Positions 1,367-62,500 of a stretch of 64,000 nucleotides of DNA are shown here, piece by piece. This DNA is from Paraspadella gotoi (Eukaryota > Animalia > Chaetognatha), in the NCBI GenBank assembly GCA_051294375.1, contig CM119267.1, forward strand, positions 15,912,105 through 15,976,104, in the 5' to 3' direction. Below the pieces are notes generated by a model that worked only from the letters and a program-made list of their open reading frames with translations, did not search any database and was not told the origin of the DNA. The first letter of the stretch is position 1. Every line of letters starts with the position of its first letter. A program made the position numbers and the translations under genes.

Positions 1367-1505
1367 AAGCAAATTCCCATGTAATTATCCATTGTTTTTT
1401 CACCTACGTAGCAATCAATATATTCATTATGCATTTTTGATTTCATTAGGGCCCAATTCATAATTGTCACTGTTTCAAATTAAAGCATCTTTCGTTCAGT
1501 TGATA

Positions 1506-3489
1506 ATGACATCTCTTAAAATATTTCGAGGATATCTTTCGCCGAATTACGTTTGCAAAAGGCACTTTTTCCTCAGTTCTGTCAATAGCCAAAACAAGAC
1601 GGAATCGAGCTCGGAATTCGATTCCCGATTCGTCAAAAGCTTGTGGCAACGAAATATACAGCCGCGGCAGAAGGGCTCGGGAAACCTAGAGGCTGAGCCT
1701 GTTTCTAGTGATTCCTTTGGTTCTCTCGCCCAAAAAGACTTCGTCGAGAGAATAGCGAATCTTCAAAGAACTTGGGGTCTCGATGGTATGGCCGACGACG
1801 ATAACGTCACGTCTTCACTCGTCCCGCAAGCGACACCGAAGTCGGATAGGGAAAGCGACAAACCGTCTTTGCTATTCCCTGCCGAGACGCTAAAAACCAA
1901 ATCCAAGGCCAGGTCCCACTTCCGTTTTACTTCCAGGAGGGCGGGAAGAAGAACCGTAGAGTGGTATGAGGAAAAGATCCAATCCTTTGTTGAAAAAGGT
2001 TTAGTAAGGGAGGCACTTCAATTGCAGAAAATCGGAATGGCCAAGGACAAAATAGAACCAACTTACCAAATTTACAGGTGAATTCTAGGAACCGTCGTCG
2101 TTATAAGGGTCAATGTCTCACGGGTTTTTTCAATTTTAGACAATTGATTCGTGGTTGTGGCAACGTTGGCGACATGGAGACCGCTTTTCTTCTGTATGAC
2201 CGCATGAAACGCTGCGGCTTCTCGATTTACGGCCAGATATACGTCTCTCTGTTGAACTCTTGTGCTAATTTTCCTGATGGTTCGGTTGCTGTCGAAAAGG
2301 CCTGTGAATTATGGGCGGAGCTTCAAGCCAACGACTTTGATATTGGAAAAGATCCGGTCGAGGGATCTGGCCTGCAGCGGGTTTTCCATGCCTTTATGAA
2401 GGTCCATATTAGACAAGGATGTCCTGACCAGGCGTTTAAAGTGAGTACTAGCTATAATTATTCATCAGATCAAATTCATTTATAATATCTTGTTTCACTA
2501 TTTCTTAGATTTACTACGAAATGGTCAAGGAACGGGGATTAGAGGCCAATGATTACACATTTTCGCTTCTTCTTTCTGCGGCAACTTCGGATCAAAAGAA
2601 TGGATTTTCCAAGGCTCTTTTGATCTGGCGCTCTTTCGTGGAGGAGCGGAAAATCATTCCCTCGACAATTCATTACCGTCGCCTCCTCTCAGCCGTCGTC
2701 CATTGTAGCACTGAAAACGGTAAAGAAGTTTTACGACTGGCCTCTAATTCTGCTCTCTCTCTTCTCGCGGAAGACGAGACTTCAAAGTCGAGTGCTTTGT
2801 CCGTTGCTAAGAACGACGACGACTCTCAGCAATTCGACTACGCCCTAACCAAAATTGACGAATCAACGTCGTTTTCGACTCCGCTGGAGCGTCTCCGAAT
2901 TTTTGGCGGCGTCGAGGGAATCGTCTCTCTCATGAAGTGTTCCGACGAGAGTCTTCCCGATGAAAATGTTTTTAATCTTCTCCTGAAATGTACTCCGGAT
3001 GATTTTTCCAGCGTGCGGGAATTGACCATGCACATGAACCAGTTAAACGTTCGCCCCGACACCGAATGGTACGACGTCGCCGTCCGCAAGCTCGTTCAGG
3101 TCGGAGATTTGAAAGGAGTCTGGAGGTGCGTTCAGGCTATGAAAGAGCGCAAAGTGCCGCTGTCCTCGTCGACTTTTCGTGAGATCTCGAAAGGTGTCAA
3201 ACGTGTGAACGAATTCGAGGTGTTTCTACGCGAACTGCGAGAGGCTTTCGTCGAACCCGACTTGTCAATTTTCGAGACTCTCATGCTTAACGCCAAAAAG
3301 GATTTCCAGCTGAAGGAGCGCGTGTTTCGATCCATGGTCGAAGAATTTATGTTGGAACCCAACGACAAAATTTTAGCCGATCTTGATCGCAGATGGACGC
3401 GAATCAAGGAAATGAATGAATTTCAGGAACAATTCCGAATAACTTACGAAAATTGGTGGGAGAAAAAAAAGGGGCGAGAAGTCTTTTGA
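1506..3489 (+). CDS. PTCD1: Mitochondrial pentatricopeptide-repeat protein PTCD1; exons 1506-2077, 2140-2440, 2509-3489
   Basis: N-terminus resembles a mitochondrial targeting peptide. WYEEKIQSFVEKGLVREAL..YRQLIRGCGNVG..AFLLYDRMK matches the PTCD1 PPR region. Two GT-AG introns join the ORFs in frame. Confidence 0.85.
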
Positions 3490-3555
3490 CATTAGTAGTT
3501 GATTGTTAATTAATTTATTTGAATCCTTGTTTTAAGGTGAGTATACACCGATACC

Positions 3556-4998
3556 ATGCTGTGGAAAAAACAATTGAGACTCGTGTTAGATAAAATCTCT
3601 GACTTTTCTCCGCCGCTCGATGTGACGTCACGCGCGGACTTTGAAAAATCGTCGGATGCGTTCCATGCCAAAAATACATTTCCAGTATACTCAGTGAGGA
3701 GTGTTAACATAAAAATGACGGAGGAAGAGTTTCTTGCGAACGCTAACAGTTGCTATCCGTTGGTGGCAGAAAAATCACTGTCTTTATTCTGCGCTTTTCT
3801 TTGCCTAAAAAGAAAATTTGGGACCGAGAAAGAACGTAGTTTATATTCTAATATGAATTTGCTACAATTCGTGGATCGCTTGTTGACGAATAGACCATTG
3901 GTTTTTGTCGGCGGCGCCGATGCTTACTTGACGCGAGATACGGCAGTGCGTGGCCGAGGTGGCTTCGAATCGATTGGTTCGGTTGAAGAACGCCCCCCAC
4001 TTATAATTGATGATTATCTAAGCTACGACGAGATCGCGCTAAGCGCTCTTTTGAACGTTTCCGGACCAACGGCGACAATTAATACCGGGGGTCGCCACAA
4101 TAGCGGAGTTCCCGGTGGCAAAGCCTTCGAGCCTCACGCGATTTACGTCGGTCTCGTAGGCGCCAGGTTTGAAAAGAAGGGTGTCATGGAGAGTCGGGCC
4201 ATGATGATCAACCGGAACCAAAATGTCTCATCCTCTGGATATGGAATAAAGGATAGATCATTAGACAATGAAGATCCCCAATCTGTTTTGGATTTGATGG
4301 CCATGGCTTATGATCAGCCTTTCGGGTTTCCTACATACGAGGAAATCTCGTCTCCGACTGCATTCGTTATGGAAAGGGTGACGATGGAAGCCGTAAAACC
4401 TGTTGAATCCTTTCACGGTACCGATTATTTTCACGCGGAGGTCTACAAGAAAAGGATGCGGCTCTCTGTGGAACCTTTTCTCCTAGAGGCGGAGCGCCGC
4501 GGAAAGCTGGCGTCAAAGAAAGTCTATGCCCACGTCGTGGGATTAGGCCTCGGAGTTTGGCGAGTCTACGAGGGTCAGAACGCGCTTTTCGTCGACGTTT
4601 TCGCTGACGTCCTGCGCGACTCGCGCTTTGAATGGATTTCCGATCTTGACTTCAGTTGGATGCGTCACGACTGTTGCGGCGATGCTAAAGATGGCCAAGT
4701 CTTTCCAGGAACACAAATCAAGATCCACTTTTCGAGTCGTGATCCTTTTGCTAAATTGAAGGACTCAGGAAAGCTTATTGTGGCTTCGTGGGCGTGGGAC
4801 GCCAATTCGTACATTGGAAACGAGTTCTGGGAGTCGGCGTTGACGGCCTCTGGGGATCCGGCGGCAGCTTGCTGTTCCCAGATAGCCGAGCTGCTGAATC
4901 CCCGAATAAACCCAAAGATTTCGGGGGCCAATTTGCATGTAGCATCGTCGGCTTTGGGAGTGGTTGATCTTAAAACTTACATGCAACAAATTTTGTGA
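3556..4998 (+). CDS. Intronless MavL/CG2909-like macrodomain protein (putative ADP-ribosyl hydrolase)
   Basis: 480-aa ORF with motifs YLSYDE, GARFE, VGLGLGVW, AWDANSYIGNEFW and SGDPAAAC, recalled from the Drosophila CG2909/CG3568 and Legionella MavL-related family. AATAAA at ~5009. Confidence 0.65.
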   Translation: MLWKKQLRLVLDKISDFSPPLDVTSRADFEKSSDAFHAKNTFPVYSVRSVNIKMTEEEFLANANSCYPLVAEKSLSLFCAFLCLKRKFGTEKERSLYSNMNLLQFVDRLLTNRPLVFVGGADAYLTRDTAVRGRGGFESIGSVEERPPLIIDDYLSYDEIALSALLNVSGPTATINTGGRHNSGVPGGKAFEPHAIYVGLVGARFEKKGVMESRAMMINRNQNVSSSGYGIKDRSLDNEDPQSVLDLMAMAYDQPFGFPTYEEISSPTAFVMERVTMEAVKPVESFHGTDYFHAEVYKKRMRLSVEPFLLEAERRGKLASKKVYAHVVGLGLGVWRVYEGQNALFVDVFADVLRDSRFEWISDLDFSWMRHDCCGDAKDGQVFPGTQIKIHFSSRDPFAKLKDSGKLIVASWAWDANSYIGNEFWESALTASGDPAAACCSQIAELLNPRINPKISGANLHVASSALGVVDLKTYMQQIL

Positions 4999-5187: not shown

Positions 5188-6231
5188 TTCACAAACGCAA
5201 CAAAAAGAAAGAAATATAACACAATGAATATTTGATTTAAAATACGTGAAATAGAATGATGCTTTTTTTACAAGCAATCTTTACGAAATTTAATCTGCCA
5301 AAAGTTATTTATTTTAGATTTGAATTTGGTACCACCGATATATGCAATATGCATGTTTTAAAGAATGAAATTGTGTTTATTCATGTTTAGTACGTATTCT
5401 CGTTTCCTGACTAGTCAATATCCTATATATTGTTGCTTTTCTTATTCTCATTTTTTTAATCAAAATATTTGTCATTCGTCAACTGATATCGGAAGGAAAG
5501 TCACCTGAAAGCTTTTGCTCTGAATGATTTTCTGCAATCTGCAGCCCAAAAAAATCTCTTTTTCTCCTCTCTCTTTTTATTTTTAGTTGCGCGAGAGTAA
5601 TCGGTCGGTCAGTCGGGCCCATTTATATTTAAAGTACATGTAATTTAAGTAATACTGCAACAATTAAATTTATGTTTTAAAAACGTAAGGCATTTTAAAT
5701 GTGCATCTGTATCATTCTTATGCAGTCACGTGATTACTTGAAAAATTAATATAGTTTACTTTTAAAAATACTCAAGTATTTTAATTAAGATATAGCATAT
5801 TGATAAAGTATTAATAAACACTCTTGTGTATGTTTTATATTTTTATTATTATATATTTATATAAGATTTAGGGTAGTTTAAAAAGTAAATGCAGCATATT
5901 TTATGTAATATTTTGTTGTTTTGCTTAATACTTATCAGAGAAGTAGTCAATCATAAGATGTTTGTTTCTTGTGTTTTATACTTGTGTAGTCACTTAAGTA
6001 ATCGGTAATTGGTCGTTGAACTTGCGGATTGTTTTTATTATTTTCATTTTGGACTCTGGAATCTGGACTCTGAAAATCATTGACGAAAAAACAAAAATGA
6101 ACTGTGCCTTATACTAAACTAATTTTTGAATAGAATCTTTTGTCCAGTTTTATTTACTTATTGATAAATTCATTCCACATCTTTTTTTTTTCTAGTTAAC
6201 CTAAATGACCCCCGTCACTTAAGATTCCGTC

Positions 6232-9200
6232 ATGGCAGAGGCGGTTATGGTTCGAAAGAAAAAACCCAAAGCGAGAGAAAGAGATAAACGTAAGCCCGCA
6301 CCGTCCGTGTCGGAGGCTCTCTCGCCGTCTCAAGAAGAGGATGAAAAGATTGCATCAATCGTGGATGACCCCCGAATCAACGAGGGCGCTATCCCACAAG
6401 TTCCGACGCTCCTGGGAGAGTTGGATGATGTGGAAAAAGAAAACTTTGCGGAACTAAAAACTGGTGAAAGTGACGAGTTCATTTCGGCATCGGAAATGCC
6501 TCCCGATTTGTCAGATAACAGGATTGTATATCCCCTGGCTGAGAGCGGAGAATCCCCCCTCGTTCCTTCTGTTCGGCCTCTTTACCCAAAACTGACTGAG
6601 GAATCGAGCGAGTCTCCTGCGATGGAGGAGATGGATTATCGCAACTACGTTCTGAGCCGGAGTCGCCCAAGCGACAGCGATGACTCCGTATCTCGGGAGA
6701 AGGAGAACGCCGCCCGCGTGGCGAAACCCCCACCGGTTGGAGTCGAGGAGAACGTCTTTGAGAAGGCCTTTTCCGACGCCGTTGAAGCGCAGATGCGGGC
6801 CACCGTGACTATGTCGCTGGGAGATGCGAATCGAAGTTCGTCGAGAGAGATTGGGGAAATCGATCTTACGCGTTTAACGGCGCTCAAGGATTCGTTGCCT
6901 GATCCCACTCTTGAAGTTGCCTTTCTCTCCCCTTCGGCGCCGCCCATCGTCGCGGATCCGACGGCGCCCGTGATGGCGTCTCAGGTGACGCCTGGAACTC
7001 TGGTGTTGCCCGAAGGGTCTGTGGAAAAAATTCCTCGTCAACAATTTAACGAGATGATATCGGTGGATTCTTTGGAATCGTCAACGGAGGAGGTAGACTC
7101 CGAAAGCGAGGAAGTCATTCCCGAATCGAGAGGGGAAACCGAGGATCCATTGCCTTTGAATCAGTTAAAAGCATTGTGGCAAAATCCGCTAGCTCAAAAA
7201 CACCAACGAATTTTGGAAGGTTTTTTCGCCGAAGTTCCACCCTGTCTGATCTCTCAACATCCCCTTTATGAGCTCCTCGTCGAGTATCAGAGGTCTCGAG
7301 CGAAACTCATGGCGCTTGAGGAACATCTGCAACAACTGAAAAGAGACGTTGATTCACTGTTGCCGGGGCTGTGGACCTCCAGCGCACAAACTACCGTCGT
7401 CGAAGGCGTTTGTCGCGACAATAACAAAGTAACGCAACAATTGACTTACGAGCAAGCAGCCCTCAACGAAGACCAAGTGCCGAAAATTTGCCAATCGCTG
7501 TCCACCATGAGGCTTTTTGCGCAAGAGCAGCTCAGTCATGTCGCATTCGTCTGCGCTCAAAATCGTTTAAAAATCGCAGTTTATTTATACAAACTATATA
7601 CTGAAATTTGTCCTGCCTTGCAAAACATTCCGATGGGAGCAACGGTGACAATGGGAGATGGCTCAGAAAGAGACGCTTCGACGCAGCAGCAAGTCAAGAT
7701 GTTAAAGCAGTGTATTAATGTGCTGTTCTCCTTTCAGAGAAAGCTTTTGTCGGACACCATTTTCCAGGTAATTTTAGTGATCTTATGAAAGTTGCAAAAT
7801 TATTTGTTCTATCTTTTTTTTTTTATTTTATATTTTTAGATATAAAATTTTATAGTCATTTAAATTTTTTTTTTTTTAATAAAAAACCGAAGTAAAAATG
7901 TAGAATAAGGAACGAAACACCCTAATAAGTAATATTATAGAAACGTTGAATGGGATGATATTTCATAGTAAAAATGTAAGAAAAATATTTAAATTGTTTT
8001 CCCTATTAACTATGGATTTTTCGTACAGAACGACACTCGAGAGTGGCTAACACGTCTTGTGGCAACTATGTTGCGTCTAGCAACCTACAGCGATCACGCC
8101 TACCTCCTCCACCACCTTCTGCGCTGTCCCCCTGGCGTCGGAAAATGGGCATCTTCCTTCCTGCAAATCCCGCGACAAAAGATTTCTCCTAAAGACTCCA
8201 GTGGTTTCCAGGAAAAGAAATACCGCGTCATGGCCATTTTACGCATTCTTCTACAAACCATCGATAATAGAGAAGATTTTCTGACAGAGATGCAGGAGGT
8301 GCTTCAATGCGAAGAAGGGAGGGCAGCTTCGTCTTCCCCGAAAGACACGACGCCTTGGGTCTTTCTTGATCCTGTTGGCGACGAGGACGTCGATGACCCT
8401 GCCAGCTCGTGGCATTTTCTTAAAGAGACGGACTTAATTGCGTTACTAGATCAAATCCCCCTTGATGTTTTGTATGACGATTCCGACCTCTTTTCACCAG
8501 CGGTCAATGCATCTGATGAATTTCCACCGAGGACAGGACGTCTGCAGCAATCTTTATCTGCGCCGGCGGCGGTCGTTTCTTCAGCCGCAGCCTCTCGAAA
8601 ATCGATTGACTTAATTTTTGACGAGACGTTGACGAGTTTCTCATTCGCTACACATCTGGTGGATTTGCTCTGCACGGGTTTAGAAAATTATAGATCTGCT
8701 CGTTATCGTCTTTTTGCTCAACGTTTGGCCGTTCTTGTGTGTAAAACTATTGATTGGGCCGGCCACCGAGCTTCGGCTTGGGCTTGCCCGCGTTTGAACA
8801 AAATTGTGGAAATTTCTGGGAAGGACCCAAAACTCAGAAAAGAAGCCGAAAGAGCTCTACATAAAGTTAGAGTAGAATTTGATGCCTTCTTTCATCGTAG
8901 TGTAACTTTATTGGTCAATGCGCAAAAACTTGGAGCTTGGATGTTTATCGCAGATTTGGCGTTCAGCAGTGTTTCTCCTGCCATGGCCCGAAAATTAATG
9001 CGGATGCTGTCGGTTGTGGATGACCATATTTTAGACGAGAAAAACTGTAGCGAGGATTCGGATACGAAAAAACTGGAATGTAAGTTGGTTGATTTACCAA
9101 TGGCCGATGTAACTCATTTGTTAACGACGATGGCCAAGTTAGCTTGTGCTCGTCCTATTGAGGAACTACAAATAATAAAAGATATAGTTGCTGAAATATT

Positions 9201-12200
9201 TCGCGCGTCTTTCGTTTCTCCCTCGACTCGTGAGTTTTGTTCTAAATTGGGTCAACAACTGCTCTCGTTAATCTGCAACACTCATCCTCACATACTTTCT
9301 TTTATTTTACAACATAAAATTGGCGCTTTAGTCATCGAAAGCGAAGGCAGCAATCATCTCGATGAGGTAGCCTTACCTTTGTTTAAGTCACTCCCAGTTT
9401 CCATATGGAAGCCTACCGAGAAAGATTTGCAAGTTTTGCGGCAGTGGTTGCTCGATTCAAAAAATATTTCATCGATTGAAAATCAAGTTGCTAGAAACAT
9501 TTTATGTAGAATTGACTGGTCAAGGAAAGATTTTGATGGATCAGTGACAGCGCATTACCTACTAGTTAAAACAGTTGCTACCCTTTTAGTCGAAGGATAT
9601 GAAAAACATTGCGGCTCTTTATCGTCCGATGGTCGTTATTGGATATCATCCGCTACCGCAAACGTATTATCTATGGGTTACAAACAGGTTACAAACTTCA
9701 CGAATGCAGTTTTAAATGTACCTCCTGAATTGAATCCAGAAAAAGAGATGACGTTGTGGGCTTGGGACTTACTGATGCGACTCGATCTTCACACTAATAC
9801 TGTTCTTGCTATTTACCCTCCTTTACCAGTTCCTAAGGACTATTGTCAAAATAATCTTTCGTTAGATAATTCAAACTGGATTACCAAGCATGTAATATCT
9901 CCATCTAAACTAGACGAGGATCTGGACTTATACCCTGTTCAACAAGCTATCAAAAATAATCATTCCGCATTGGCTTCTTTCGTAGCTATTTTGTTAACCC
10001 AAATAGGACAAAATCCTGAACATTTTGTATCTGAAGGAGGAGTTCAAATGTTTTTGTCTATTGTTAATTACGGGCAATATGAGGCAGCAGTTAACATTCT
10101 AAACCATATTTTACCCTTGTTTTTTGTTCAGTCTTCCACTTGTCTCGAATACCTAGCTGAAAATTCAGAATTTTCCTTGGGTATATGTCAAATAATTAAC
10201 TCCGAATTGGTTAAAAACGCCAATTGCATTCAATCAAAAGTTGTGGCTTTAATCATTAGCCAACTTAAGGAGGCTAGTAAAATTTCAAGCACCGCTCAAC
10301 TGACTCCCGTTGATACCTCGGATGCTTATTTTTCTCTTCCTTCCTCGTTTGGAAAACCTCGTCCAACTTTAGTCTATGAGTTTTGGATTAGGTCATTAAC
10401 TGCCTCTCCAGATTGGTATACTTTACCTGGCTCCTTATTTGTGATAGAAAAGCTTATTCTTTATGCTTATCAGGCTTCATCTGAATGCGCGGAATATTTT
10501 CAGCTCGTCAACAAAGTTTTTCAGGAACGTTTTACTTCAACTCTTGGTAATGACCGTGTTGAACAAAAAGGGTTGCTGTATTCCGTGGTCGCTTGGATGT
10601 CTTCTTCCTCCGAAATGCTTCCGACATTATTAGACACGGCAGTCCATCAATTCCCAGCTGTTGCCTTACATATTTTAACGGTGGAGACAAACTATGAAGA
10701 AGAAATTGGACTTTGGGCTGGATTACAAAGAGAATTGCTTCTTAACCCAAAAATGGCTCCAGCAGCAGCATTTAAAACGACTTTGCAATCGCTCAGCCTT
10801 CCAGATCTGCCATTGAACCGACTAAGTATTTTTCGGTGGTCATTGCAAATTCTTGAGACACTAGTAAGCCATCCTCTTATGCCCCTGCTTTGGCAAAGAT
10901 TCTTTGCAGTTTTTCTCCGGAAACCTCTGACCCAGGATGGATTTCCGTACCGCGGTAGCATTGGCGATATTTTGCTTAATAACGGACCGGAGAATGATAA
11001 GTTGACAAAATCGCTAAAAAAACAAGCAAAAAAGTGTTGCGACTATTATTATGAATTATTAAGACAATTTAGAGCTGTGAATAGCCCATCGAAAACTCGT
11101 GTGACTGACTTGAAAATTTGTCATCATACTGAATTAATTAACAGACTTATTAATTTTTTTAAAAGTTGTGAAGTTTGGCTGGACGAACCTCGGCTTCATG
11201 ACAGTCAAGTATACTTGCCAACATTGCCGGATGTCTATGATTCTCCAAGACTTCTTAAGCTTTTTAATGCGAACGATAAGGAAATCTGGCTGGAACTTGT
11301 TGACTGTAATTGTATATCCTTTAGTTTAGATGAGACACGGCGTATTTGGTACAATGAATTTTTGGCTTTTAAGATCTCTTCTATCTATAGTCAAGGCAGT
11401 GATAGTTCTGAAATGGCAGCGTCAGAGGTCTCTGTATCGGGATTATCTGTTTGGCAGCCTAATACAAATATGAGTAAAAATTGGACACGAACATCGCGAC
11501 CACCTCCTGAACTGATAATTGTAGAGCCACCATTCCCACCTCTCGCTCCTAAAGCAACTGTTGACAAACAAATTATTCTGGCAACACTACGGTCTGATTT
11601 TTCCTCACTTGTTGGCCATTGCCGAGCTTTTTCAGGTCAAATAAGTCGGGCCCATGATTTGGATGAAGAATATGCAGAACTTCTGTCTAGACAATTCATT
11701 AATGAGCCCACTCCCGTCAAGGTTCATCTTTCTTGCAAAAGTCTTTTTAATCCAACTCATCGATGTAAAGGAATTAATACCAAAACTGTTATTATAGAAG
11801 AAAAAAAACAGAATGTTAATATATCTCGCCAGATATCTGACAATCGTTTAGAAATTTCTGAGTTAATACCAATTTTTCCAAACGCACCATTATCTAAGAG
11901 TGCTTTCACAGCGCCCCCCAATTATTTAATAATCTCTACTGCAAGAGTAGAATATGCTATAGAGGCAGTTATTCAGGAGCACAGAATGAAAAATAATGAC
12001 AAATCACAGGCCGTCGGTGCAGCACTTTTTTATTACATGATGAAACTTGTTTCACCGGACAGCACTGAAAAATATATTCCAATGCGTCAATTTTTTTCTA
12101 CGAGCTTAGAACAACTTGGTCAAATTTTTATTTTACCTATAACTAAGGAATGTCAGTCTTTAGTAACCTCAATTTTAAATTTACCTCATATGGCAGGTAT

Positions 12201-15930: not shown

Positions 15931-15947
15931 TTTCTATAAACTTTAAG

Positions 15948-46720: not shown

Positions 46721-47228
46721 GCCGATGAGCGACATGTCCCAAACCATTTCAAGTGTGTGGAAAGCGTAACGGATATATTGTGATACAAATGACAAAAAAA
46801 GTACGCGCCAATGTAGCAGGATGGAGGCTGTGCTGATCAGATGGCTATTCTTCTGAGTTATTAGCTAATAGCTATACTTCTATTCAATTTGATTTCCTGG
46901 TCATCTTGATAAAAACCGCTTTTCATTTGAATTGTCCCTCGTCTGCAAAATGCCTTTTACCGTTACTGATTCAGTATAGAGCTTTATTTTGTGTTTTGCA
47001 AACTTTTCTAACCAAATATATCTCATTAGACTAAACGTTGCTAATAAATTTCTTACAAACTTCATTTGTGAAAAAAATTTTCTCACTTTTATCTAGTCTT
47101 TTTATTGTTTACAATTTGATTGTGGTGTAATCATCACCTAGTATTATTTATTCTTCAATAGTGATTGTTGATTATAAAACTGTGTATCCGTGTCTTTTTT
47201 TTTTTCAAGAACTAATTAAGTAATAAAA

Positions 47229-51711: not shown

Positions 51712-54700
51712 ATGAGCTTGGCTAGCGATAGCCAGTTTTCTGCTAATAATCCGCTAATGTTGGAAAGATTTAGAAAACCATTAGAGGTAAGGACTAAGGT
51801 GTATGAAAACTGAACTTGTTAAATTATAACTTTTACCCGTCCTTATCTTTTCTTACAGATTTCTTCGAAACTAATTCAAGGAGATAAATTCATAAAATGG
51901 GACGAGGACAGTCCAACGGGCGACGCGCATTGCATGGTGACAATGAACGTGGACGCCCTGGGCTCGATACTCTATTGGACGGACCCTCACAAGGAGGTGG
52001 AGGTACTGCACATGGCCTACGTTCGCGATGTGCGCACGGGCAAATTTGCCAAAACTCCCAAAGACAAGTGCCTCGCCGAACAGCTGTCCAACATGCCCGG
52101 CGGTGGTGCGCAGGGCGAGGGTCGTCTGGAGGATAGGACCATCACTGTTGTCTATGGCACTGACCTAACAAATGTCTCTTTCTACAATTTCATGAGCATC
52201 GCCAAGTCAGCCGAGGCAGTCGCTAAGGAATGGACCCAGGAACTTTTTGTGTATGCGTATAATATCTTCGCTCTTAATGGATCCACGCAGCGTTACCTGG
52301 AGCAATGCTACAATCGGCTCTCTGTAACCACGGATCGCAGCGGTAGAATCCCTGTCAAAAACTTGGTTCAAACATTTTCCAAGCAATCCAAGGATGATCG
52401 AAAACGCGTGGAACGGGCGCTCGAAGTCGCCGGCATCCCCAGCGGGCGAAACGATTCGATAGATCCTTCCAAATTTACAATCAAAGAATTTTTAAACTTT
52501 TACAAACATCTGACCGGACGTTCCGAAGTTGACCATATCTTTCAGCAGATTTTCCAGCAACAGGGGCTGAAAAAACGGCCGTACCTCACCGTCGATCAAT
52601 TCGTGACTTTTCTCAACAACGAGCAACGCGATCCTCGGCTTAACGAAATCCTCTATCCCTACTTCGATCGCGCCCGCGCCCTCGCCCTCATCCACTCCTT
52701 CGAACCTAACCCGACGTTGGTCTCGCGGGAGCAGCTTTCCGTCGACGGTTTCCTCACCTTTCTCATGAGCGAGGAAAATGCCGCCGTTCCTTCGGAACAC
52801 CTCGATAGGACCGAGGACATGACCAAGCCTCTCAGCCACTACTTTATTAATTCCTCTCACAATACCTATCTGACTGGGCATCAATTGAACGGCAAGTCGT
52901 CCGTGGAGATTTATCGGCAATCCCTTTTGGTCGGATGCCGTTGCGTCGAGCTCGACTGTTGGAACGGGCAGACGGCGGACGACGAACCTATAATAACTCA
53001 CGGCTATACCTTTTGCACCGAGGTACCATTCAAAGATGTTATAGAAGCAATCGCCGAAAGTGCCTTTAAGACGTCAGAATATCCGCTCATTCTCTCTTTT
53101 GAGAATCATATTACGGTTCCCAAGCAGCAGCACAAGGTGGTGCAATACTGCAAGGAGTATTTTGGAGACTCGCTACTAACTGAGCCTTTTGACAGTCACC
53201 CGCTGGAAAAGAACGTTCCGTTGCCTTCGCCTGAAATGCTAAAATACAAAATTCTTATCAAAAACAAAAAGAAAACTCACTACAAACACGACAACGCCTC
53301 GGGGTCGTCGTCGTCACCTGGGAGACCCTCCACTGGCTCAGGAAATGTCGAGAGCGGGAGATCAGGAACGCCGTCTACCTCCCCGGATGAAATCCAGGCT
53401 GAACTTATCGAGCCAGCTCTCGCTGAGCATGAACTGCCCGGGCCAGCCCTCGCTGAGCCTGTTGTTGATCGCCATTCCTCGGACGGAGACACAATCCATA
53501 CTCACCTCACCGAAAAAACATCCATCCTTAATTCAGACGATGAGGAAGAAGATGATATCGAAGACGATGAGGACGATGAGGACGAGGCGATCGATGACGA
53601 AAAGGTTCAAGAACGAGGCACGGCTGTACGCGAGGCAGAACCAAGTCAAGAAATTTCTGCGATGGTTAACTATGTTCAGCCCGTTCGGTTCCTTTCCTTT
53701 GAAAAAGCAGAAAAACGTGCCCATTTTTTCGAATGCTCCTCCTTTGCTGAGACAGAAGCGACGCGACTTTTAAAGGAGCATCCTGTCGACTTCGTGAACT
53801 ACAACAAAAAGCAACTCTCCCGCGTCTATCCTAAGGGAACACGTGTTGACTCTTCCAACTATACGCCACAGATGTATTGGAATGCTGGCTGCCAACTCGT
53901 TGCGTTAAACTTTCAGACGCAAGATTTGGGCATGATGTTGAACCACGGTATTTTTGAATACAACGGCCGATGTGGCTATGTGCTCAAACCTGATTTCATG
54001 CGTCGCGAGGACAGGAGGTTGGATCCATTTATAGAGTCAACAGTCGATGGCATAGTAGCCAATACAGTTAAGGTGAAGGTGATATCAGGGCAATTTTTGT
54101 CAGACAAACGATCCAACCCATACGTAGAGGTTGACATGTATGGTCTTCCCACCGATACGACAAGAAAAAAATACAAGACATCTCCTGTTAACAATAACAG
54201 CATCAATCCAGTGTGGAATGAGGAACCTTTTGTCTTTAAAAAGGTCGTTTTGCCAAATCTTGCACATCTTCGATTCTGTGTTTACGATGAAAATGGCAAA
54301 ATGATGGGCCACCGTGTCATTCCTGTTCGCGGCCTCCGACCCGGATATCGACATTTAAATCTACGTAATGAAATTAATCAACCTCTACCATTGGCCACTT
54401 TATTCGTCAAACTGGAAGTCAGAGACTATGTGCCAGACGATTTTTCAGAATTTGCCGCCGCACTCATGAATCCCATTCAATATCAAAAGGAACAGGCCAT
54501 CCTACGACGAGACCAGCAACTAAGATCTACCTTTTTGTTAGATGAGGAAGATGAGCCAGACACTAAGACGTTCCTGAATGAATTGGATCACTTAAGCGTG
54601 AATCCGGGATTGTTGAATGAACGTCGCTGCAGTGATAACCGGGACGCCGTTTTTATGAACTCGGATTTTAGGCATAAATCTCTTGAAAAGACCTCATCTT

Positions 54701-56175
54701 CTCCTATTGGTCTTAGTTTCGTAGAGCCGGGTTCTTCGAGCGCGTACAATGGTGACTCTTCCCTGTCTATGGATCGTCAAGATTCCACCTCCGCCTCTGA
54801 GGGACTCGAGGACAGTGACATAGTTGGCCCCTTGCAGACTCCCCGGGATTTAAGTCGGAAAGGGTCTCGAATGAGCGCCAGTGGACTGAAAAAAGCTAAC
54901 TCGACAGGAGGGTCCAGTGACGGCGAGAATTCAAATGGAGATTCTTCCATTTCTATGTCGCGTCAACCGTCAACGTCCTCTTCCACGGGAGTTGGCCATT
55001 TACCTAATAGAACCCTACCCCACCAAATGTCCGTTGGTTCCATTGACTCCTTTGATTCTGGTCCCGGAGGCAGAATAGGGGCAAGGCTGACCGGAAGACC
55101 ATCGACAACTTCAATGATACTAAATACCAGCGTTTCTTCACCTGACCCAAAGATGGACGCTTTTGCTCTGTTTTTGAAAGAATCGTCACTTAATACTCGG
55201 CAGGTGTCACCGTGCACGACTGAAACCATAAAAACTGATAAACTGTATGAGAAGTTGGTTGCTAAAAGAGACAAAGAGTTGACGAGTCTGGCGAAGAAGA
55301 ACAAAAAAGCGATGTCAAAATTAGAGGAGATACTTGGAGTCAGTGCGAGTCAGATGGATCACCGTTTATCTAAAGAAAAGCAGCAACTAGAAAAGAAAGT
55401 TAAAAAGTTGCTGCAACACAACAAAAAAGACAGTAGCTCAGAAGCTGAAGAGAACATTAAACGACAGGCTGAAAATGAGTTAGCTGCTTTCTCGTTGAGG
55501 GCAGAAAAAATGCGATCTGCTATGCAGATTGAATCCGCTAATGCCCTTCATGAAAAATCTCTTCGGCAACTCGAAGAGGAAGAATCGCGAAAACTTTGCT
55601 ACTTTAAGGAGGAATTTGAGCTCCTGGCTTCTCTGGTGGCCCGTGATCAAAAGGCTCAGATAGATGAACTCGAGTCGATGTACAAGGACGACGAAGCCAA
55701 GTTGCGGAAGGACATGGACACCGTGCACAAAGAACAAGTCAAAGAATTGTCGAAAACTCACAAAGACAAGCAAGAGTTGTCGCGTCGGAAGCGAGAGGTG
55801 CAACAGCGTTATGTGAATGATATTGTTTCAAAAGTACAAAGACTTCGAGATCTTAGAGACAAATGTATGAAAGAATTAAAAGAAAATCAAGAGGAAGCAT
55901 TAAAAGAATTGGAAGTGCTGCGACTCAGTGAATTTACTAATCTTCAAAAACTAATTGAAGCAAGTAAACAAGATTTGGCAGAAAAATATGGAGTAACATC
56001 ATCGAACGGTGGCCATGGATACATTGCTTCTTGTTTTCCGGACGGGGAATGTGGAAGCGAATCATTTTTGAACAGTCAAAGTGGTAGATTAAGCAACGAC
56101 GGCTCTAGTTCAAACGGAGCCATTTCCCCCAATCCTAGTCATTTTTCTGAATATGATGAATCTACCAAACTATGA
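51712..56175 (+). CDS. PLCB: phospholipase C beta; exons 51712-51786, 51859-56175
   Basis: GDKFIKWDED PH start; X box (HYFINSSHNTYL, GCRCVELDCW); Y box (LSRVYPKGTRVDSSNY); C2 domain; coiled-coil CTD; PDZ-ligand-like ESTKL end. Confidence 0.95.
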
Positions 56176-58070
56176 ATATTTAGAAATTAACGATCTTAAG
56201 AGGGGATTATTTTGCTAATGAATGAATTGTACCAAAAACCGACGGATTTAATTTACAGGATGCCATAAACTGGAGCATGTGCCACCACTTTTTTGGACAC
56301 AGTTTATAAAGTCTAAATGGATTATCAAAATAGTTTTATTTTACCGGGTAATTTTAAGTAGTGTAGGTTTGGGCTTAACGCTTTTATTTATCTCTGCTTG
56401 GAAAAAAATATGGAATATTTTCTTCTGGTGATCTGTGAGGCATTTCGTGACTGGTTTCGGCTCAGCTGCAACACTTACTTCATTTTTAGACCTGTAACTA
56501 TTGTAAAATAGTTTATTCTTATATGTATGTAGATTGTTAAGGATTTGTTTGATTCGTAATATAATTGAAAGTATGGTTACAACTTATTTTTAATTAGTTT
56601 TTTTCTCCATTAATCAATAGAAGTTCAAGGATAAATCGTAATATGCAATGGATTATTTAATATTTTTAGATAGAAAGCTTTGAGTCCGATTTGACGATTA
56701 ATTTAAAAAAAAATTAAAACAATATTGGCTCCTGAAACGGGACTAAATTTTATATTTGATTTGTTTATACTCATTTAAAACGACTCATCTCATAGAATAC
56801 TTTAATTTTGTCATTAAAATACATTTGTTTTTGAACGATTTCTTTTTAGAATTCTTGTATTTTTGATTGTTAATTTTGGCTATTTTTCCAAGCTGGCAGA
56901 AAACGCTTTAAAGCCAACAATTTCTATGATAATTAATTTTTGTTACCCAGAAAATATGTAATAGCTAAATACCATGTAAACTAGGACATTTTTTTTAAAA
57001 ATAATATTTTTCAGGTGGTAATATAATTTATATCAAAAAATCCTTCCATATGATTCTTCGATAGCTTTCTTCGCCAGTTTTCATTTAAATTGCTTTCATA
57101 TCTATTCTTTGGGTTCCCTGTTCTGTCATTCTCCTGGCTTATCGGTTTCTTATTGAAATTTTGTCGTGCCTTATATGAAAAGAGAAGCGAGTTTTTTTCA
57201 TATTAATTAAGGTACGGTTGTTTCCTTTATTATTAAATAAAGGATTATTTAATATATATTTACGTTTTTCTGGATCTTTTGAACTCTGTTAGTAACAGAA
57301 TCGCAATGTAGTTGCTGCAGATATTGATGAAACAATATTAAAAAAAACTGACTGTGTTTAAAAACAAAAAGCCTAGGTCAATGAACCAGTTTTCTCATAA
57401 TTTTTCTGTGATAGTTTATTTCTTAGTTGCCATGGTGTATTTTTTTAATTCAGCTTTCTATAATCTATATCCTACCTCCTATCGCGTTTGAAACTTAGCT
57501 TGTTAGTTTGTCAACAGGAAGTTTTCTGTACGACAATAAACAGTGTTATACCCTTACTAGTCTAATATTAATTTCAACCCCAAAGCCTAGTCCCCCGATT
57601 TTTTATTTTTTCTTTTCGCTCTAAATTTTTAGTTTTTTCTTTGCCATATTTTCCTTGAATGATATCATGTGTAGAAGTAATTTTTAGATCTTACAGATTT
57701 GTCAAACGGAAGGGCATTTCGTGAAAGTTTTGTGGGTGTAATCGCTAACAAGTAGTTATTTTTTATATCTCGAAGTAACCGTAATAGAAATTGCAGTTTT
57801 ATGCAGGCTATTACCTTTTGTCGAAATTTTAAGTCAAATTGGAAAAGATTTCCAATCTCGATTACGTTGTTATTATTAATATCTGTTATAAAATATTTTA
57901 TTTCATTTCAGTCTGAGAATTCCGTATGTTAACCGAGATTTTCCTCCAGCCGAATAAAAGACTACTCGAAATAATTTTGTCGTTTTTCTTCTACTTTTAG
58001 ATTTTATAAATATTTTATCTAATAAAATATACATATAACAAAGCTTGCCACGAGCTGGAAACATTAGAAA

Positions 58071-59486
58071 ATGCGTAGCTACGTATCCGACGAAGACGAT
58101 TGTGTGGTACCAAGTGAGGCTGAAGAATACGCAAAATGTCCCCACGGTCCTATGTTGTTGTTTCAACGCCGAAAGGACGGTCGTGCTTATTACGCATGCG
58201 CCGCCTCTCGAGACCGAAAGTCCTGCGCTTTTTTCTCTTTTCGGGACAAAATTCCGAGCGTCGAGACGTTGAAAGTGTGGAGGGTAGAAATAGTGGAGGC
58301 ATCCCTTCCGCCGAGCGCCGAAGACGCCGCGCGGTACAAAAGGACTAAAGCTCTGCCCGCTCGGGAACGAGCATATTGCGCCGCGCCTTCGTGTTCTCGT
58401 TTTGTTTTTCAAGACGAACTGTCGGCTCACGAAAATCACGCCATCGTCCGAGGATTATCGGACAAAAGGTTGAAACGTCCGACGGAGATTCTTCCCCCGT
58501 TAGAGGATCCAAAGTTCCACGCCCAGTTCTTTTTTGACGAAAAGTCCCTCGACTTCATTGTCGAGGTTGCGACCAATTTGGAGACTAATGTCGTCTGCCT
58601 TGGAGCTCCCAAAATTCACGAAGCTCTTCGGGGAAAACGTCGCTCTTTTCTACTTGATCTCGACCATCGGTTTCAAAGCTTTTACACCAACGAATCCTTC
58701 GCCCGCTTCAACATGTTCAATCGTCACTTTTTCTCCCCGGAAGCCGAAGCGGCGTTTAAAGCCTTTCTTTCTGTCTCGGAGTCTCCGCCTCTCATCGTGG
58801 TCGACCCTCCATTCGGTGGGAGAGTGCAACCGCTTTCGTCGACCCTCCTCGCCATATCCGCGTGGTGGCTCGCGGCTGTGAAGAAGAGCGGGAATACGGA
58901 CGACCCCAAAACAGAATCTGGCTACCTTTTGCCGGTTCTTTGGGCGTTTCCTTACTTTCTCGAAAAATCCCTCCTCAAAGAGCGTCCTGAATTTCAGATG
59001 CTCGATTTTAAAGTTGGCTACGTTAACCATTCCCTGTTTCGGTCGAACAAAGACGAAAAAACCCCAAGAGGTTCGCCCATCCGCTTTTTTACAAATTTAA
59101 AACCCTCCTCTATAAAACATCCGGAGACAGAATACAGATGGTGCACTTCCGGTTGTGAGAGATGGGTGGCCAAAGAAAACAACCATTGCGATCAATGTGG
59201 TTTCTGCCCGTCCAAAGATGGTACGGCCTATGTTCACTGCGATGTTTGCGCCAAATGCGTTAAACCCTCCCGCGTTCATTGCGCCTCATGCGGTCGTTGC
59301 GAACTGTCGGGACACGTTTGCAGCGACATTGGCGACGAGGCCGCTCAAAATCGATGCTTTGGTTGCGGCCTGACCGGTCACAAGAGGAGACAGTGTCCAG
59401 AAAACTGGCGAGGACAGAAAAGCAAGGGAAAAAGAAAGCGGGAAACAAAACCGAACAATAAAATCAAACGAGTGAAAGTTTTTTAG
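58071..59486 (+). CDS. ZCCHC4: rRNA N6-adenosine methyltransferase ZCCHC4, intronless
   Basis: GRF finger CPHGP..YACAASRDRKSC, AQFFF, LLDLD.RF, DPPFGG catalytic motif, Cys-rich region, terminal CCHC knuckle. Confidence 0.93.
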   Translation: MRSYVSDEDDCVVPSEAEEYAKCPHGPMLLFQRRKDGRAYYACAASRDRKSCAFFSFRDKIPSVETLKVWRVEIVEASLPPSAEDAARYKRTKALPARERAYCAAPSCSRFVFQDELSAHENHAIVRGLSDKRLKRPTEILPPLEDPKFHAQFFFDEKSLDFIVEVATNLETNVVCLGAPKIHEALRGKRRSFLLDLDHRFQSFYTNESFARFNMFNRHFFSPEAEAAFKAFLSVSESPPLIVVDPPFGGRVQPLSSTLLAISAWWLAAVKKSGNTDDPKTESGYLLPVLWAFPYFLEKSLLKERPEFQMLDFKVGYVNHSLFRSNKDEKTPRGSPIRFFTNLKPSSIKHPETEYRWCTSGCERWVAKENNHCDQCGFCPSKDGTAYVHCDVCAKCVKPSRVHCASCGRCELSGHVCSDIGDEAAQNRCFGCGLTGHKRRQCPENWRGQKSKGKRKRETKPNNKIKRVKVF

Positions 59487-59578
59487 TCGCCAGTGTATTT
59501 TCATTTTTTGCGTTCGTTTGTTGCGTTTTGAACTTAATTTTAGTTTTTCCCAGTATGACTTGATAAATTATTTCAACC

Positions 59579-62500
59579 ATGACGTGTATGGTCGGTTGCC
59601 CGCGATGGTTGCGGCTGCTGCGCCTGCTGTTGTGGAAGAATTTGCTCCTTCAAAAGCGTCGGCCTTGGTGGACATTCTTTGGCATTTTTCTTCCACTCCT
59701 CCTCATCGTTATCATCATGATTTTTCGACAAAAGGTTGAACCGGAAGAAATGGCAGACCCTCTCCGATTCGAGTCCTTTTCCGTCCACGGGATCCCTTCT
59801 CGAGACGCCAGTTTTGGGGGAGGCTTTGGCGATGGCAAGCCTAAATACAGGCAGGCCAAATTCACCATCGTTTACAGCCCAAAGAACAAGATCACCTCCG
59901 CGATCATGCGCAGAGCCGCCCACAAGCTATATTTGAAGAGGCTTAAAGGTTTTGCCGACGAATCAACGATGGTCGAATACATTCTCAAGAAACGCGCCTT
60001 CGCCCTGGCTCATTCCGGCTCCAAGGAAATCCTTCCTGGTATCACGATCGGCGGCCGTTCCGACGCCGCCGCCATCCTATGCGGAATCAGTTTCGACGCC
60101 ACGGATTGGTCGAAACCTTTACACGGCGCAAATGTCACTTACTCCCTTCGATTTCCCCACAGCCCACCGACGAACATGCCCAAATTTTCTAAATTCAGAA
60201 GAGGGGATCATTGGTTCACGGAGAGAATGTACCCGCGAAGATCGACTATTGGTCCGCGTGGGGCAAATGGTATATGTATTGACTGTATTGTGTATTCTGA
60301 TTGAGAATTTTTAAGACAATTTTTTGGTAAAATTATTTTGCGATTACATTTTAGGTTATGGCAGCGACACTCCGGGATATTACATACAAGGCTTCCTAGC
60401 TGTGCAGTGGGCCTTGAATAACGTGATCATGAAGCACGTGACGTCGAACAAGAGCCTCTTCGAAGATGTCAAGGTTGGGCTGAAGCAATTTGCTTACCCG
60501 CCTTATTTCGACGATCCTTACACCAGCGGTCTCCAGGCTCAATTTCCCTACTTGCTGATGGTCTGCTTGAGCATTTGTTGCTTGGACATAATTAAAAATG
60601 TGGCCGTGGAGAAGCAGGAAAAGCTCAAAGAAACTATGAAGATCATGGGTTTACCCAACTGGCTCCACTGGCTGGCTTGGTTCATCAAAAGCTTCGTGTA
60701 CATGGCCATCATCCTTTTGCTGATGACGACCATGCTGAAAGTCTGGATTCCGCCCTATGGTCGGGTCATAAGCTATTCCCAATGGTCTGTGCTGCTGGTT
60801 TTTTTCCTTTGCTATTCCGTGGCCTTGATAAGTTTTAGGTAGGCGAAAGATGAAATATTGTTATTTTGAAAAAGTAACATTAATTTTTCTGTTCTTCCTC
60901 CCTCCCTTTTTTTCCCTTAGCTTCATGATTACAACCTTCTTCAGCAAAAGCAATACCGCGGCCGCTGCTGGAGGAGTAGTGTACTTCCTCACCTTCATTC
61001 CTTTCTTTTTCGCTTATTTCAATTACAACGACCTCACCCTCGGCCATAAGATTACCTTCTGCCTCTCTCTCAATACCTGTCTCGGTTTGGGCTGCAAACT
61101 CATTGGGATGTTCGAGGGCAAAGGGACGGGGGTGACGTGGGCCACCGTGGCAACGCCCATTTATGCCGACGACGATTTTTCCATGCTTACCGTTTGGGCG
61201 TTACTCCTGGTCGACGCTCTCATCTGCGCCACTATCGCCTGGTACGTGGAACGGGTCCGGCCCGGCGACTTCGGCGTCGCTCTCCCCTGGTATTTTCCCT
61301 TCACCTCCTCCTACTGGAGCGGCGGCGTCGACAACGCCCGCGCGGACAGCCTTCTCGAGAAGAACGAATCGAAAAACGGAGAAGATAACGTCGCCCTTTT
61401 AGAAAAAAGAAACGTTTCGACGGAGAACGGAATCAAAATTCGTCGTTTGCGAAAAGTTTTTGGGGATCAGTGCGGAAGAGATTCGAATACATACAAAGTC
61501 GCTGTTCGGGGAGTCTCAATGGAAATGGTGGAAAACGAAATATTCGTTCTTTTGGGTCATAACGGTGCTGGAAAATCAACGACCATATCCATGCTGACAG
61601 GTAAAAAATTGTTTATGGTAAAATAAAGTTATAGTAACAAAGACATGATGTGACAATCCTTTCTTTTTTCGTTGTTAATGAGTTAAGAGAAAATCAAAGT
61701 TTTAATGAATTGTGCAACGAATTTTATTTGTTCAGATACGGACATGTTTCGGCTTGTAATGTAATGAAAACTTTTACTCTCTCTCTCTCTCACTCTCTCT
61801 CTCTCACTCTTCTTCTGCACAAAAAATTTTCAATTATTTCAAACTGTAATGGACGCTGATGAAGGCTTGAACATTACAAACCGAAAAATGTCCGTATCTG
61901 AACAAATAAAATTCGTTGCACAATTCATTAAAACTTTGATTTTCTCTTAAGTAATAAAGACATAATGTTGACGATTATATTCATATTGACACGACATACA
62001 GGAATGTTTTCTCCGACTGGAGGAGACGCTTTCGTCCGCAACAAAAGTATTCTCACCGATATGGCGGACATTCGTCGCGAAATGGGAATCTGCCCGCAAC
62101 ACGACGTCCTGTTTGACGACCTGACCGTCCGCGAACACCTCATATTTTTTGGCCGACTTAAGAATTGTTCTCCCGACGTTTTGGACTCTGAGATTGACTC
62201 GCTGTTAGGAGATCTACTCCTTGAGCCTAAAAAATTCGAATTGGCTAAAACATTGTCGGGCGGGCAAAAGAGAAAACTCTCGGTGGCAATCGCTTTAATC
62301 GGGCAGTCAAAGGTTGGACGCTAAAACTGCATTCCTATTTGGTTTCTGTTACAAGTATGTATTTTTATTTATAATTATTTGTATCAAGGTGGTTCTACTC
62401 GACGAACCGACGAGCGGTATGGACCCTTCCGCGCGTCGATTGACTTGGAATGTTTTGAAGAAGTACAACGCGGGTCGAACGATGCTATTGACTACTCATT

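What the first reader, a model, noticed from the sequence alone, without database searches (positions are those of the whole stretch)
1499..59581. Co-directional gene run with tiny gaps and acceptors before start codons: candidate operons with spliced-leader trans-splicing
Seen: all 12 non-nested genes are on + (about 1/2000 if orientation were random). Stop-to-ATG gaps are 66 nt (PTCD1-macrodomain), 321 (EPG5-TCTA-like), 17 (TCTA-like-ULK4), 155 (ULK4-REXO4), 255 (REXO4-WDFY3) and 92 (ZCCHC4-ABCA). Pyrimidine-rich AG acceptors sit 0-36 nt before many ATGs: 1499, 3536, 6195, 15423, 15947, 21267/21277, 47209, 59553. Known: this layout characterises nematode, Oikopleura, flatworm and chaetognath operons, which favour mitochondrial and RNA-processing genes (here PTCD1, MPV17, REXO4, ZCCHC4). 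Inference: polycistronic transcription resolved by SL trans-splicing.
Basis: partly seen in the sequence, partly recalled or inferred. Interest (0 to 1): 0.8.

Follow-up and report, generated by a model that had tools for sequence, protein, structure and literature searches.

The report
Arrow-worm operon chain with spliced leaders
Twelve genes lie head to tail across 64 kb of what is likely an arrow-worm (chaetognath) genome, and two of them carry the known arrow-worm spliced-leader tail at an AG splice site in assembled RNA, so the region likely works as one or several operons cut apart by trans-splicing, a mechanism already published for this phylum, with only the chain's possible length being unusual.

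Summary
The layout is confirmed: 12 of 12 non-nested genes lie on +, and all six stop-to-ATG gaps are exact. In one spliced contig set (run X1), the MPV17 contig begins with non-genomic TTGTTTAAA at AG 47209. These tails match the 3' end of published chaetognath spliced leaders (PMC2481426 Table 3). Of 11 gene junctions, contigs bridge 5, stop 3-104 nt short of the next shown or predicted acceptor at 4, and 2 were not examined. Limits: a leader was seen at only 1 of the 8 named acceptor sites; only 3 of 8 stand out by sequence; contigs are not molecules. SL-resolved operons are known in chaetognaths (PMC2481426; PMC12460157: 18% of genes, longest operon nine genes). The scan already noted a nine-gene run elsewhere in this genome (e1-10588163). 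Verdict: a real, new member of a known kind. Still open is whether 11-12 genes over 62 kb or more form a single unit.

The parts
1..633 (+). 3' end of a C2H2 (zf-met) zinc-finger gene, open at the window edge; first gene of the run
   Evidence: Pfam zf-met E=2.4e-13; junction to the next gene not covered by laid RNA
1506..3489 (+). PPR protein (PTCD1-like), introns 2078-2139 and 2441-2508; 617 aa
   Evidence: Pfam PPR; both introns spliced in X1; frame intact
3490..3555 (+). 66-nt gap with no AATAAA; candidate acceptor AG at 3535-3536; bridged by an X1 contig
3556..4998 (+). Intronless MavL-like macrodomain (ADP-ribosylhydrolase family) gene
   Evidence: Pfam PF16062 E=4.4e-119; on the same contig as the PPR gene, which ends at 6091
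6194..6195 (+). Predicted trans-splice acceptor of the EPG5-like gene (strong T tract); 104 nt after the upstream contig end; no contig laid on 6092-6264
   Evidence: score p=0.005 and depth arithmetic
6232..15102 (+). Likely EPG5, 2869 aa, one intron 7768-8028
   Evidence: intron spliced; frame intact; name is a lead only
15424..15930 (+). TCTA-like 168-aa ORF, ATG directly after AG 15422-15423
   Evidence: Pfam PF15128 E=0.011; Atlas 0.82; both flanking gaps bridged
15931..15947 (+). 17-nt gap ending in AG directly before the ULK4 ATG; no room for a promoter or intercistronic region
   Evidence: bridged by contig
15948..21125 (+). ULK4, 1375 aa, five exons
   Evidence: PDB ULK4 E=3e-36; Pfam HEAT_ULK4; four introns spliced, contig ends at 21251
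21281..22490 (+). REXO4, 383 aa, one predicted intron; candidate acceptor 21267, 16 nt after the ULK4 contig end
   Evidence: homologue names; Pfam RNase_T; frame
22746..46720 (+). WDFY3-like BEACH protein gene with many introns; its 3' contig ends at 47206
   Evidence: Pfam PH_BEACH and Beach
47208..47209 (+). Trans-splice acceptor of MPV17: non-genomic TTGTTTAAA joined at 47210, three bases after the end of the WDFY3 contig
   Evidence: loose end; tail absent upstream in cis; matches leader 3' ends
47229..49889 (+). MPV17, 201 aa, intron 47502-49556; contig ends at 50255
   Evidence: Pfam Mpv17_PMP22
50341..50342 (+).
   Evidence: loose end
50343..56175 (+). PLC-beta: non-coding exon 50343-51119, introns 51120-51520 and 51787-51858, ATG 51712, 1463 aa
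   Evidence: Pfam PI-PLC X/Y, C2, PH; splices
56176..58070 (+). 1895-nt PLC-beta to ZCCHC4 interval, covered end to end by one contig; candidate acceptors 57911 and 58000
58071..59486 (+). Intronless ZCCHC4
59487..59578 (+). 92-nt T-rich gap with no AATAAA; candidate acceptor 59553; bridged by contig
59579..64000 (+). ABCA transporter gene, runs off the window
   Evidence: PDB ABCA3; Pfam ABC_tran

Best explanation
This is likely a chaetognath operon region: MPV17 and PLC-beta RNA contigs carry the chaetognath spliced-leader tail at an AG acceptor, and the tightly packed co-directional genes are likely transcribed as one or several polycistronic pre-mRNAs that leader trans-splicing cuts into single mRNAs. 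Shown: co-directional packing; leader tails at 47209 and 50342; spliced contigs crossing five gaps; upstream contigs running to within 3, 16, 87 and 104 nt of the next shown or predicted acceptor. Inferred: RNA polymerase II reads through from gene to gene; the spliceosome joins a capped leader exon (from SL RNA genes elsewhere, in 5S clusters in Spadella) to each downstream AG; the other genes are also trans-spliced. At the shortest junctions (3, 17, 66, 92 nt) the upstream 3' end would be made at or just before the acceptor without a canonical AAUAAA, as in Ciona and Spadella operons. The bridged contigs would come from partly processed polycistronic RNA.
For:: two unrelated genes carry the same non-genomic 9-10 nt 5' tail, each joined exactly after AG. 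The tail occurs in the window only inside WDFY3 (28915, 35475-35476, 36816 on -), never followed by a GT donor. Chance of an exact match is about 4e-5 and 1e-5 per site at non-coding base composition; 25 of 26 published chaetognath leader forms end in TTGTTTAAA and 22 of 26 in TTTGTTTAAA. Of 4 papers holding that 10-mer and 'leader', only the chaetognath paper concerns spliced leaders (listing). X1 is RNA: 10 GT..AG introns are spliced out (7 of 10 joints, 3 of 6). Depth arithmetic leaves 6092-6264 and 50256-50342 empty and intron 51120-51520 almost empty, so DNA contamination is unlikely to make the bridges. Bridged gaps: PTCD1-MavL, EPG5-TCTA, TCTA-ULK4, PLCB-ZCCHC4, ZCCHC4-ABCA. No AATAAA in the 66, 17, 155, 255 and 92 nt gaps. 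Published parallels: three bases between poly(A) site and acceptor in Spadella RPS14-PCNA; abutting cistrons, 3' ends 2-6 nt upstream and mostly no AATAAA in Ciona.
Against: A leader was seen at only 1 of the 8 named acceptor sites. At 1499, 3536, 15423, 15947 and 59553 the contig runs straight through and bin depth equals that of the single contig, so no leader-bearing contig was laid there. 6195 was uncovered, and REXO4's contig was not among the rows shown (24 of 33 and 20 of 26 loose-end rows were hidden). The two junctions with a leader are not bridged and the five bridged junctions show no leader, so no single junction has both lines of evidence. Contigs are graph paths, not molecules, and cannot show RNA ends or strand; the WDFY3 contig also ends right after a 12-T run. 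One run, one study. Five of eight named acceptors are unremarkable by sequence. Gene order in relatives could not be tested.
Confidence: 0.82

Rival explanations
1. The genes are trans-spliced but monocistronic. Each has its own promoter hidden in the 3' part of the upstream gene, and its outron overlaps the neighbour's 3' UTR, so the assembler joins overlapping but separate transcripts.
For: Leaders also go to monocistronic genes in chaetognaths (about half of genes trans-spliced, 18% operonic; PMC12460157). Internal promoters are common in nematode operons (PMC7725455). The long intervals (872, 1233, 1895 nt stop to ATG) have room for promoters and hold AATAAA. A contig across two genes shows no single transcript.
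Against: At gaps of 17, 66 and 92 nt the promoter would have to lie in coding sequence. At WDFY3-MPV17 the acceptor's pyrimidine tract lies inside the upstream contig. This rival is plausible for some long junctions, much less for the whole run.
Confidence: 0.1
2. The bridged blocks (PTCD1-MavL; EPG5-TCTA-ULK4; PLCB-ZCCHC4-ABCA) persist as stable, unresolved polycistronic mRNAs. Only the first gene of each block gets a leader, and downstream ORFs are translated by reinitiation or leaky scanning.
For: No leader-bearing contig was laid at any of the five bridged junctions, and the PLC-beta block begins with a leader. Acceptors 3536 and 15947 score poorly.
Against: An AG sits 0-25 nt before four of the five downstream ATGs, with a strong one at 59553. 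Logan contigs undergo SPAdes-like graph simplification (bioRxiv 2024.07.30.605881), which would likely clip a short leader branch wherever a read-through path exists (inference). Translation behind 1,400-2,900-codon ORFs would be very inefficient (general knowledge).
Confidence: 0.06
3. A compact genome with a chance co-directional run; the bridges come from genomic DNA in the library and the tails are assembly noise.
For: The run type is only guessed as RNA; single run.
Against: Ten GT..AG introns are removed, unbridged gaps are empty, and two independent tails equal the published leader end exactly at AG.
Confidence: 0.02

Closest known systems
Chaetognath SL-resolved operons: Spadella cephaloptera RPS14-PCNA (PMC2481426; passages and section 12 read) and Paraspadella gotoi genome-wide operons (PMC12460157; results and methods passages read, Supplementary Table 1 not readable)
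   Same: Same leader 3' end (TTTGTTTAAA); acceptor three bases from the upstream RNA end at one junction; co-directional, closely packed housekeeping genes without one shared function.
   Different: Different genes. The chain here is 11-12 genes and 62 kb or more if continuous, against nine genes for the longest P. gotoi operon. It includes very large genes (EPG5-like, WDFY3-like, ABCA) and a signalling gene (PLC-beta), a class reported as depleted from P. gotoi operons. Whether this window is P. gotoi and already annotated there could not be checked.
Ciona intestinalis operons without intercistronic DNA and C. elegans SL1-type operons (PMC1488885, PMC2760879, PMC7986045; passages read)
   Same: Upstream RNA appears to end at or a few bases before the downstream acceptor; short gaps lack AATAAA; the same leader class would serve all genes.
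   Different: Unrelated leader sequence. Ciona operons have 2-6 (up to 7) genes. Several junctions here leave 16-104 nt between contig end and acceptor, so spacing looks mixed; true poly(A) sites are not mapped here.
C. elegans SL2 operons (PMC7725455, PMC7986045; passages read)
   Same: Polycistronic transcription resolved by trans-splicing; internal promoters possible.
   Different: Up to 8 genes, about 100-nt intercistronic regions and an operon-specific SL2. No operon-specific leader was found in chaetognaths, and the leader type cannot be told from a 9-10 nt tail.
Oikopleura dioica operons (PMC11067885, PMC1488885; passages read)
   Same: Head-to-tail housekeeping genes with 23-30 nt intercistronic regions and loosely related functions.
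   Different: Different leader and lineage; introns and genes here are larger. The maximum operon length in Oikopleura was not found in the passages read.

Membership tests
Chaetognath SL trans-splicing | Common 5' motif on transcripts of unrelated genes, absent from the genomic upstream region | tested here: met
   MPV17 and PLC-beta contigs; absent in cis
Chaetognath SL trans-splicing | Leader joined at a 3' splice site AG | tested here: met
   Joined after AG 47208-47209 and AG 50341-50342
Chaetognath SL trans-splicing | Leader sequence of the chaetognath type (about 36 nt, ending TTGTTTAAA) | tested here: inconclusive
   The last 9 and 10 nt match 25 of 26 and 22 of 26 published forms; the rest of the leader is not in the contigs
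Chaetognath SL trans-splicing | SL RNA gene with donor site elsewhere in the genome (5S clusters in Spadella) | not testable with these tools
   No genome held; none in the window
SL-resolved operon (P. gotoi definition: two or more genes less than 250 bp apart, at least one with a leader) | Co-directional neighbours less than 250 bp apart | tested here: met
   66, 17, 155 and 92 nt stop to ATG; 3 and 87 nt contig end to shown acceptor; 104 nt to a predicted acceptor; 321 and 1895 nt gaps bridged; REXO4-WDFY3 (255 nt) and ZnF-PTCD1 (872 nt) not examined in RNA
SL-resolved operon (P. gotoi definition) | At least one member gene with a leader | tested here: met
   Two downstream genes
SL-resolved operon (mechanistic) | Polycistronic precursor molecules spanning the junctions | tested here: inconclusive
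   5 of 9 examined junctions bridged by spliced contigs, which are not single molecules
SL-resolved operon (mechanistic) | One promoter for the unit, none at downstream genes | not testable with these tools
   Needs CAGE, ATAC or nascent RNA
SL-resolved operon (mechanistic) | Every downstream gene trans-spliced | tested here: inconclusive
   Leader seen at 2 of 10 gene starts inside the laid stretches; assembly can hide leaders at bridged junctions (inference)
Intercistron-less (Ciona / SL1-type) operon | Upstream poly(A) site abuts the acceptor | tested here: inconclusive
   WDFY3 contig ends 3 nt before the MPV17 junction, but a contig end is not a mapped poly(A) site
Nematode SL2-type operon | Operon-specific leader on downstream genes | not testable with these tools
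   Tails too short to type; none found in P. gotoi

The most novel reading that the evidence does not exclude
All 11-12 genes, over at least 62 kb and running off both window edges, are one polycistronic transcription unit. It would be longer than the nine-gene maximum reported for P. gotoi and the 6-8 genes reported for Ciona and C. elegans. It would carry giant intron-rich genes, an antisense receptor pair and junctions so tight (3 and 17 nt) that trans-splicing itself cuts the upstream mRNA, with a branch point at the upstream stop codon.
Probability: 0.3. Interest if true: 0.55.

Novelty: new member of a known kind. Interest (0 to 1): 0.3.

Why it matters
It confirms from raw sequence plus one RNA assembly that this genome uses chaetognath-type leader trans-splicing, and that short-gap gene runs here should be annotated as operons; assemblers fuse these genes into 4.7-15 kb contigs. 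The mechanism is published, so the gain is a test locus. The 3-nt and 17-nt junctions would let one ask how an upstream mRNA gets its 3' end when there is no spacer, a question left open for Ciona in PMC1488885. The chain also offers a test of how long an animal operon can be.

Tried and rejected
Whole genome: none held, so no SL RNA gene search or genome-wide strand statistics. Rfam at E<=1: 0 matches. Full leader pattern in the window: 0. Run search: no holder on record as RNA; 1 of 3 listed runs holds the stretch. X2 laid 0 records and X3 laid 2 short ones, uninformative. Uncovered stretches (6092-6264, 47207-47209, 50256-50342) prove nothing about absence of read-through. Gene order in relatives: the metagenome scan with the ZCCHC4 alignment (window protein plus the top 8 of 187 hits) gave 2 loci from 119 pattern matches, at 28-32% identity; I did not read them further. 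TCTA-like: no homologue among 32 candidates. EPG5: no Pfam or PDB match; the Atlas was ambiguous. The first acceptor null (overlapping windows) overstated significance and was redone with non-overlapping windows. Branch-point motif YTRAY was found before 7 of 13 candidate trans acceptors but only 5 of 12 cis acceptors, so it is not diagnostic. The sigma-70 promoter scan does not apply to an animal and was disregarded. P. gotoi supplements: three PDFs searched for six gene names and leader terms, no gene hits; the spreadsheet with the operon table was too large to read and may bear on novelty. Searches for 'longest operon' and 'largest operon' with trans-splicing gave 0 papers, so no claim is made about an animal-wide record. 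Cis-splicing from an upstream non-coding exon was rejected for the two tails (no copy followed by GT in the window). Other loose ends were explained as cis exons outside the laid stretch (46450, 60271) or left as likely repeats. The closest ZCCHC4 and REXO4 homologues are unnamed, so proteins gave no independent check of the phylum here.
Full report
Observation. Reading the window and its ORFs gives twelve genes on the + strand: a zinc-finger gene ending at 633, a PPR protein (1506-3489), a MavL-like macrodomain gene (3556-4998), likely EPG5 (6232-15102), a TCTA-like ORF (15424-15930), ULK4 (15948-21125), REXO4 (21281-22490), a WDFY3-like BEACH gene (22746-46720), MPV17 (47229-49889), PLC-beta (ATG 51712 to 56175), ZCCHC4 (58071-59486) and ABCA (59579 onward). 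EPG5 and TCTA-like are leads only, and the names PTCD1 and WDFY3 go beyond the domain hits by recall. The only minus-strand genes found are two ionotropic-receptor-like genes inside a WDFY3 intron. The other five are 872, 1233, 508 and 1895 nt stop to ATG and, for MPV17 to the PLC-beta acceptor, 453 nt.

Acceptors by sequence. All named AGs exist. Against 195 non-overlapping windows of AT-rich non-coding DNA, only 3 of 8 named sites stand out (6195, 47209, 59553); the set as a whole is better than chance (Fisher p 3e-4). The matrix rests on 12 introns and is weak, so this neither proves nor excludes the others.

RNA. One of three listed runs, X1, holds the region (79% of sampled words). It is only guessed to be RNA, but its contigs skip ten GT..AG introns. 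Depth arithmetic shows that two unbridged gaps are empty and a 401-nt intron nearly so, which argues against genomic DNA. A 4,684-nt contig joins the spliced PPR gene to the macrodomain gene and ends at 6091. A 13,676-nt contig runs from 6265 through EPG5, TCTA-like and ULK4 to 21251. A 5,517-nt WDFY3 contig ends at 47206, a 1,000-nt MPV17 contig spans 47210-50255, and a 15,181-nt contig runs from 50343 through PLC-beta and ZCCHC4 into ABCA. So of 11 junctions, 5 are bridged; at 4 the upstream contig stops 104, 16, 3 and 87 nt before the next predicted or shown acceptor; and 2 (ZnF-PTCD1, REXO4-WDFY3) lay outside the 33.9 kb of 64 kb that was laid.

Leader. The MPV17 contig starts with TTGTTTAAA and the PLC-beta contig with TTTGTTTAAA, each non-genomic and joined right after an AG (47209, 50342). 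No copy of either followed by a GT donor exists in the window. In Table 3 of PMC2481426 (section 12 read), 25 of 26 chaetognath leader forms end in the 9-mer and 22 of 26 in the 10-mer. The library search for the 10-mer with 'leader' listed four papers, of which only that one concerns spliced leaders. Nine and ten bases are also the suffix lengths at which the published variants converge, which is where a de Bruijn contig would begin if several leader forms were used on one gene. This is inference, but it fits the statement in PMC12460157 that one gene receives several leaders. The match marks the organism as likely a chaetognath; protein searches gave only unnamed close relatives.

What speaks against. 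No junction shows both a bridge and a leader. At five named acceptors the contig runs straight through and no extra contig was laid; 6195 is uncovered; for REXO4 the relevant rows may be hidden (24 of 33 and 20 of 26 loose-end rows were not shown). Logan contigs are simplified with SPAdes-like heuristics (bioRxiv 2024.07.30.605881, passages), which would likely remove a short leader branch where a read-through path exists, so absence there is weak evidence either way. Contigs are not molecules and their ends are not mapped RNA ends. The evidence is one run of one study. Conservation of gene order could not be tested.

Mechanism. Most likely polymerase II transcribes through blocks of these genes and the spliceosome adds a capped leader at each downstream AG. 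Leader addition is shown for two genes and transcription across five gaps is shown at contig level; co-transcription from a shared promoter and leader addition at the other genes are inferred. The shortest gaps lack AATAAA. The WDFY3 contig ends three bases before the MPV17 junction. This resembles the three-base spacing at Spadella RPS14-PCNA and the spacer-less Ciona operons, where upstream 3' ends lie at or 2-6 nt before the acceptor and AATAAA is mostly absent (PMC1488885 passages). At TCTA-ULK4 the only branch-point-like motif overlaps the upstream stop codon, a prediction only. Rivals are separate promoters with overlapping outrons (plausible for the long intervals; internal promoters are common in C. 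elegans), unresolved polycistronic mRNAs, and artefact.

Comparison and novelty. SL trans-splicing and operons are established in chaetognaths: about half of P. gotoi genes are trans-spliced, 18% are operonic, operons are defined as genes less than 250 bp apart with a leader, and the longest has nine genes (PMC12460157 passages). By that definition parts of this run are operons, and the chain from the PPR gene to ABCA (11 genes, over 62 kb) would qualify if REXO4-WDFY3 and the predicted acceptors hold. That exceeds nine genes, and the 6-8 genes reported for Ciona and C. elegans. I found no figure for Oikopleura, two searches for a record length returned nothing, and the P. gotoi operon table could not be read. 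The locus may therefore already be annotated, and no record is claimed.

Verdict. Observation confirmed, interpretation supported, mechanism known: a new member of a known kind, interest 0.3. The single-unit reading has probability about 0.3 and would deserve about 0.55.

Noticed in passing
window 28381-31135, minus strand: Two tandem two-exon ionotropic-receptor-like genes (Lig_chan, Lig_chan-Glu_bd) nested antisense in one WDFY3 intron, only about 60 nt apart; could be a small antisense operon inside the run.
   Followed up: partly
window 50343-51711: PLC-beta has a 968-nt spliced 5' UTR after the leader with 16 upstream ATGs, one opening a 97-codon frame; suggests strong translational control.
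   Followed up: partly
window 1279-1281: The PPR contig runs through the named AG at 1499 and has 171 more letters beyond 1450; if collinear it starts two letters before an exon opening at AG 1279-1280, which may be the real acceptor. Not testable after the laying cap.
   Followed up: partly
window 3534-3543: The candidate acceptor at 3536 is followed at once by a perfect donor-like GTGAGT; no splice from it was seen in X1.
   Followed up: partly
window 15935, 21227, 47173, 15381: TATAAA lies 12-42 nt upstream of four shown or candidate acceptors; a possible variant poly(A) signal, not tested against chance.
   Followed up: no
window 15928-15932: The TCTA-like stop codon sits inside TTAAT, the only branch-point-like motif before the ULK4 acceptor 17 nt downstream.
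   Followed up: partly
window 8029-15102 and 51859-56175 versus 22746-46720: Very uneven intron density: 7.1-kb and 4.3-kb single coding exons (EPG5-like, PLC-beta) and intronless ZCCHC4 and MavL-like genes beside the intron-rich WDFY3-like gene.
   Followed up: no
window 47540-49500: The MPV17 intron is filled with high-depth repeats (summed depth up to 17,000) with what look by eye like inverted-repeat arms, likely nested non-autonomous transposons.
   Followed up: no
window 21332: A contig with an 89-nt AT-rich loose end joins inside the REXO4 coding sequence at 90% likeness; unexplained, likely a chance or repeat match.
   Followed up: no
window 59333: X1 carries a 15-nt in-frame insertion in ZCCHC4 relative to the window; likely an allele.
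   Followed up: no
window 3556-4998: Intronless animal member of the MavL-like ADP-ribosylhydrolase family; its origin was not examined.
   Followed up: no
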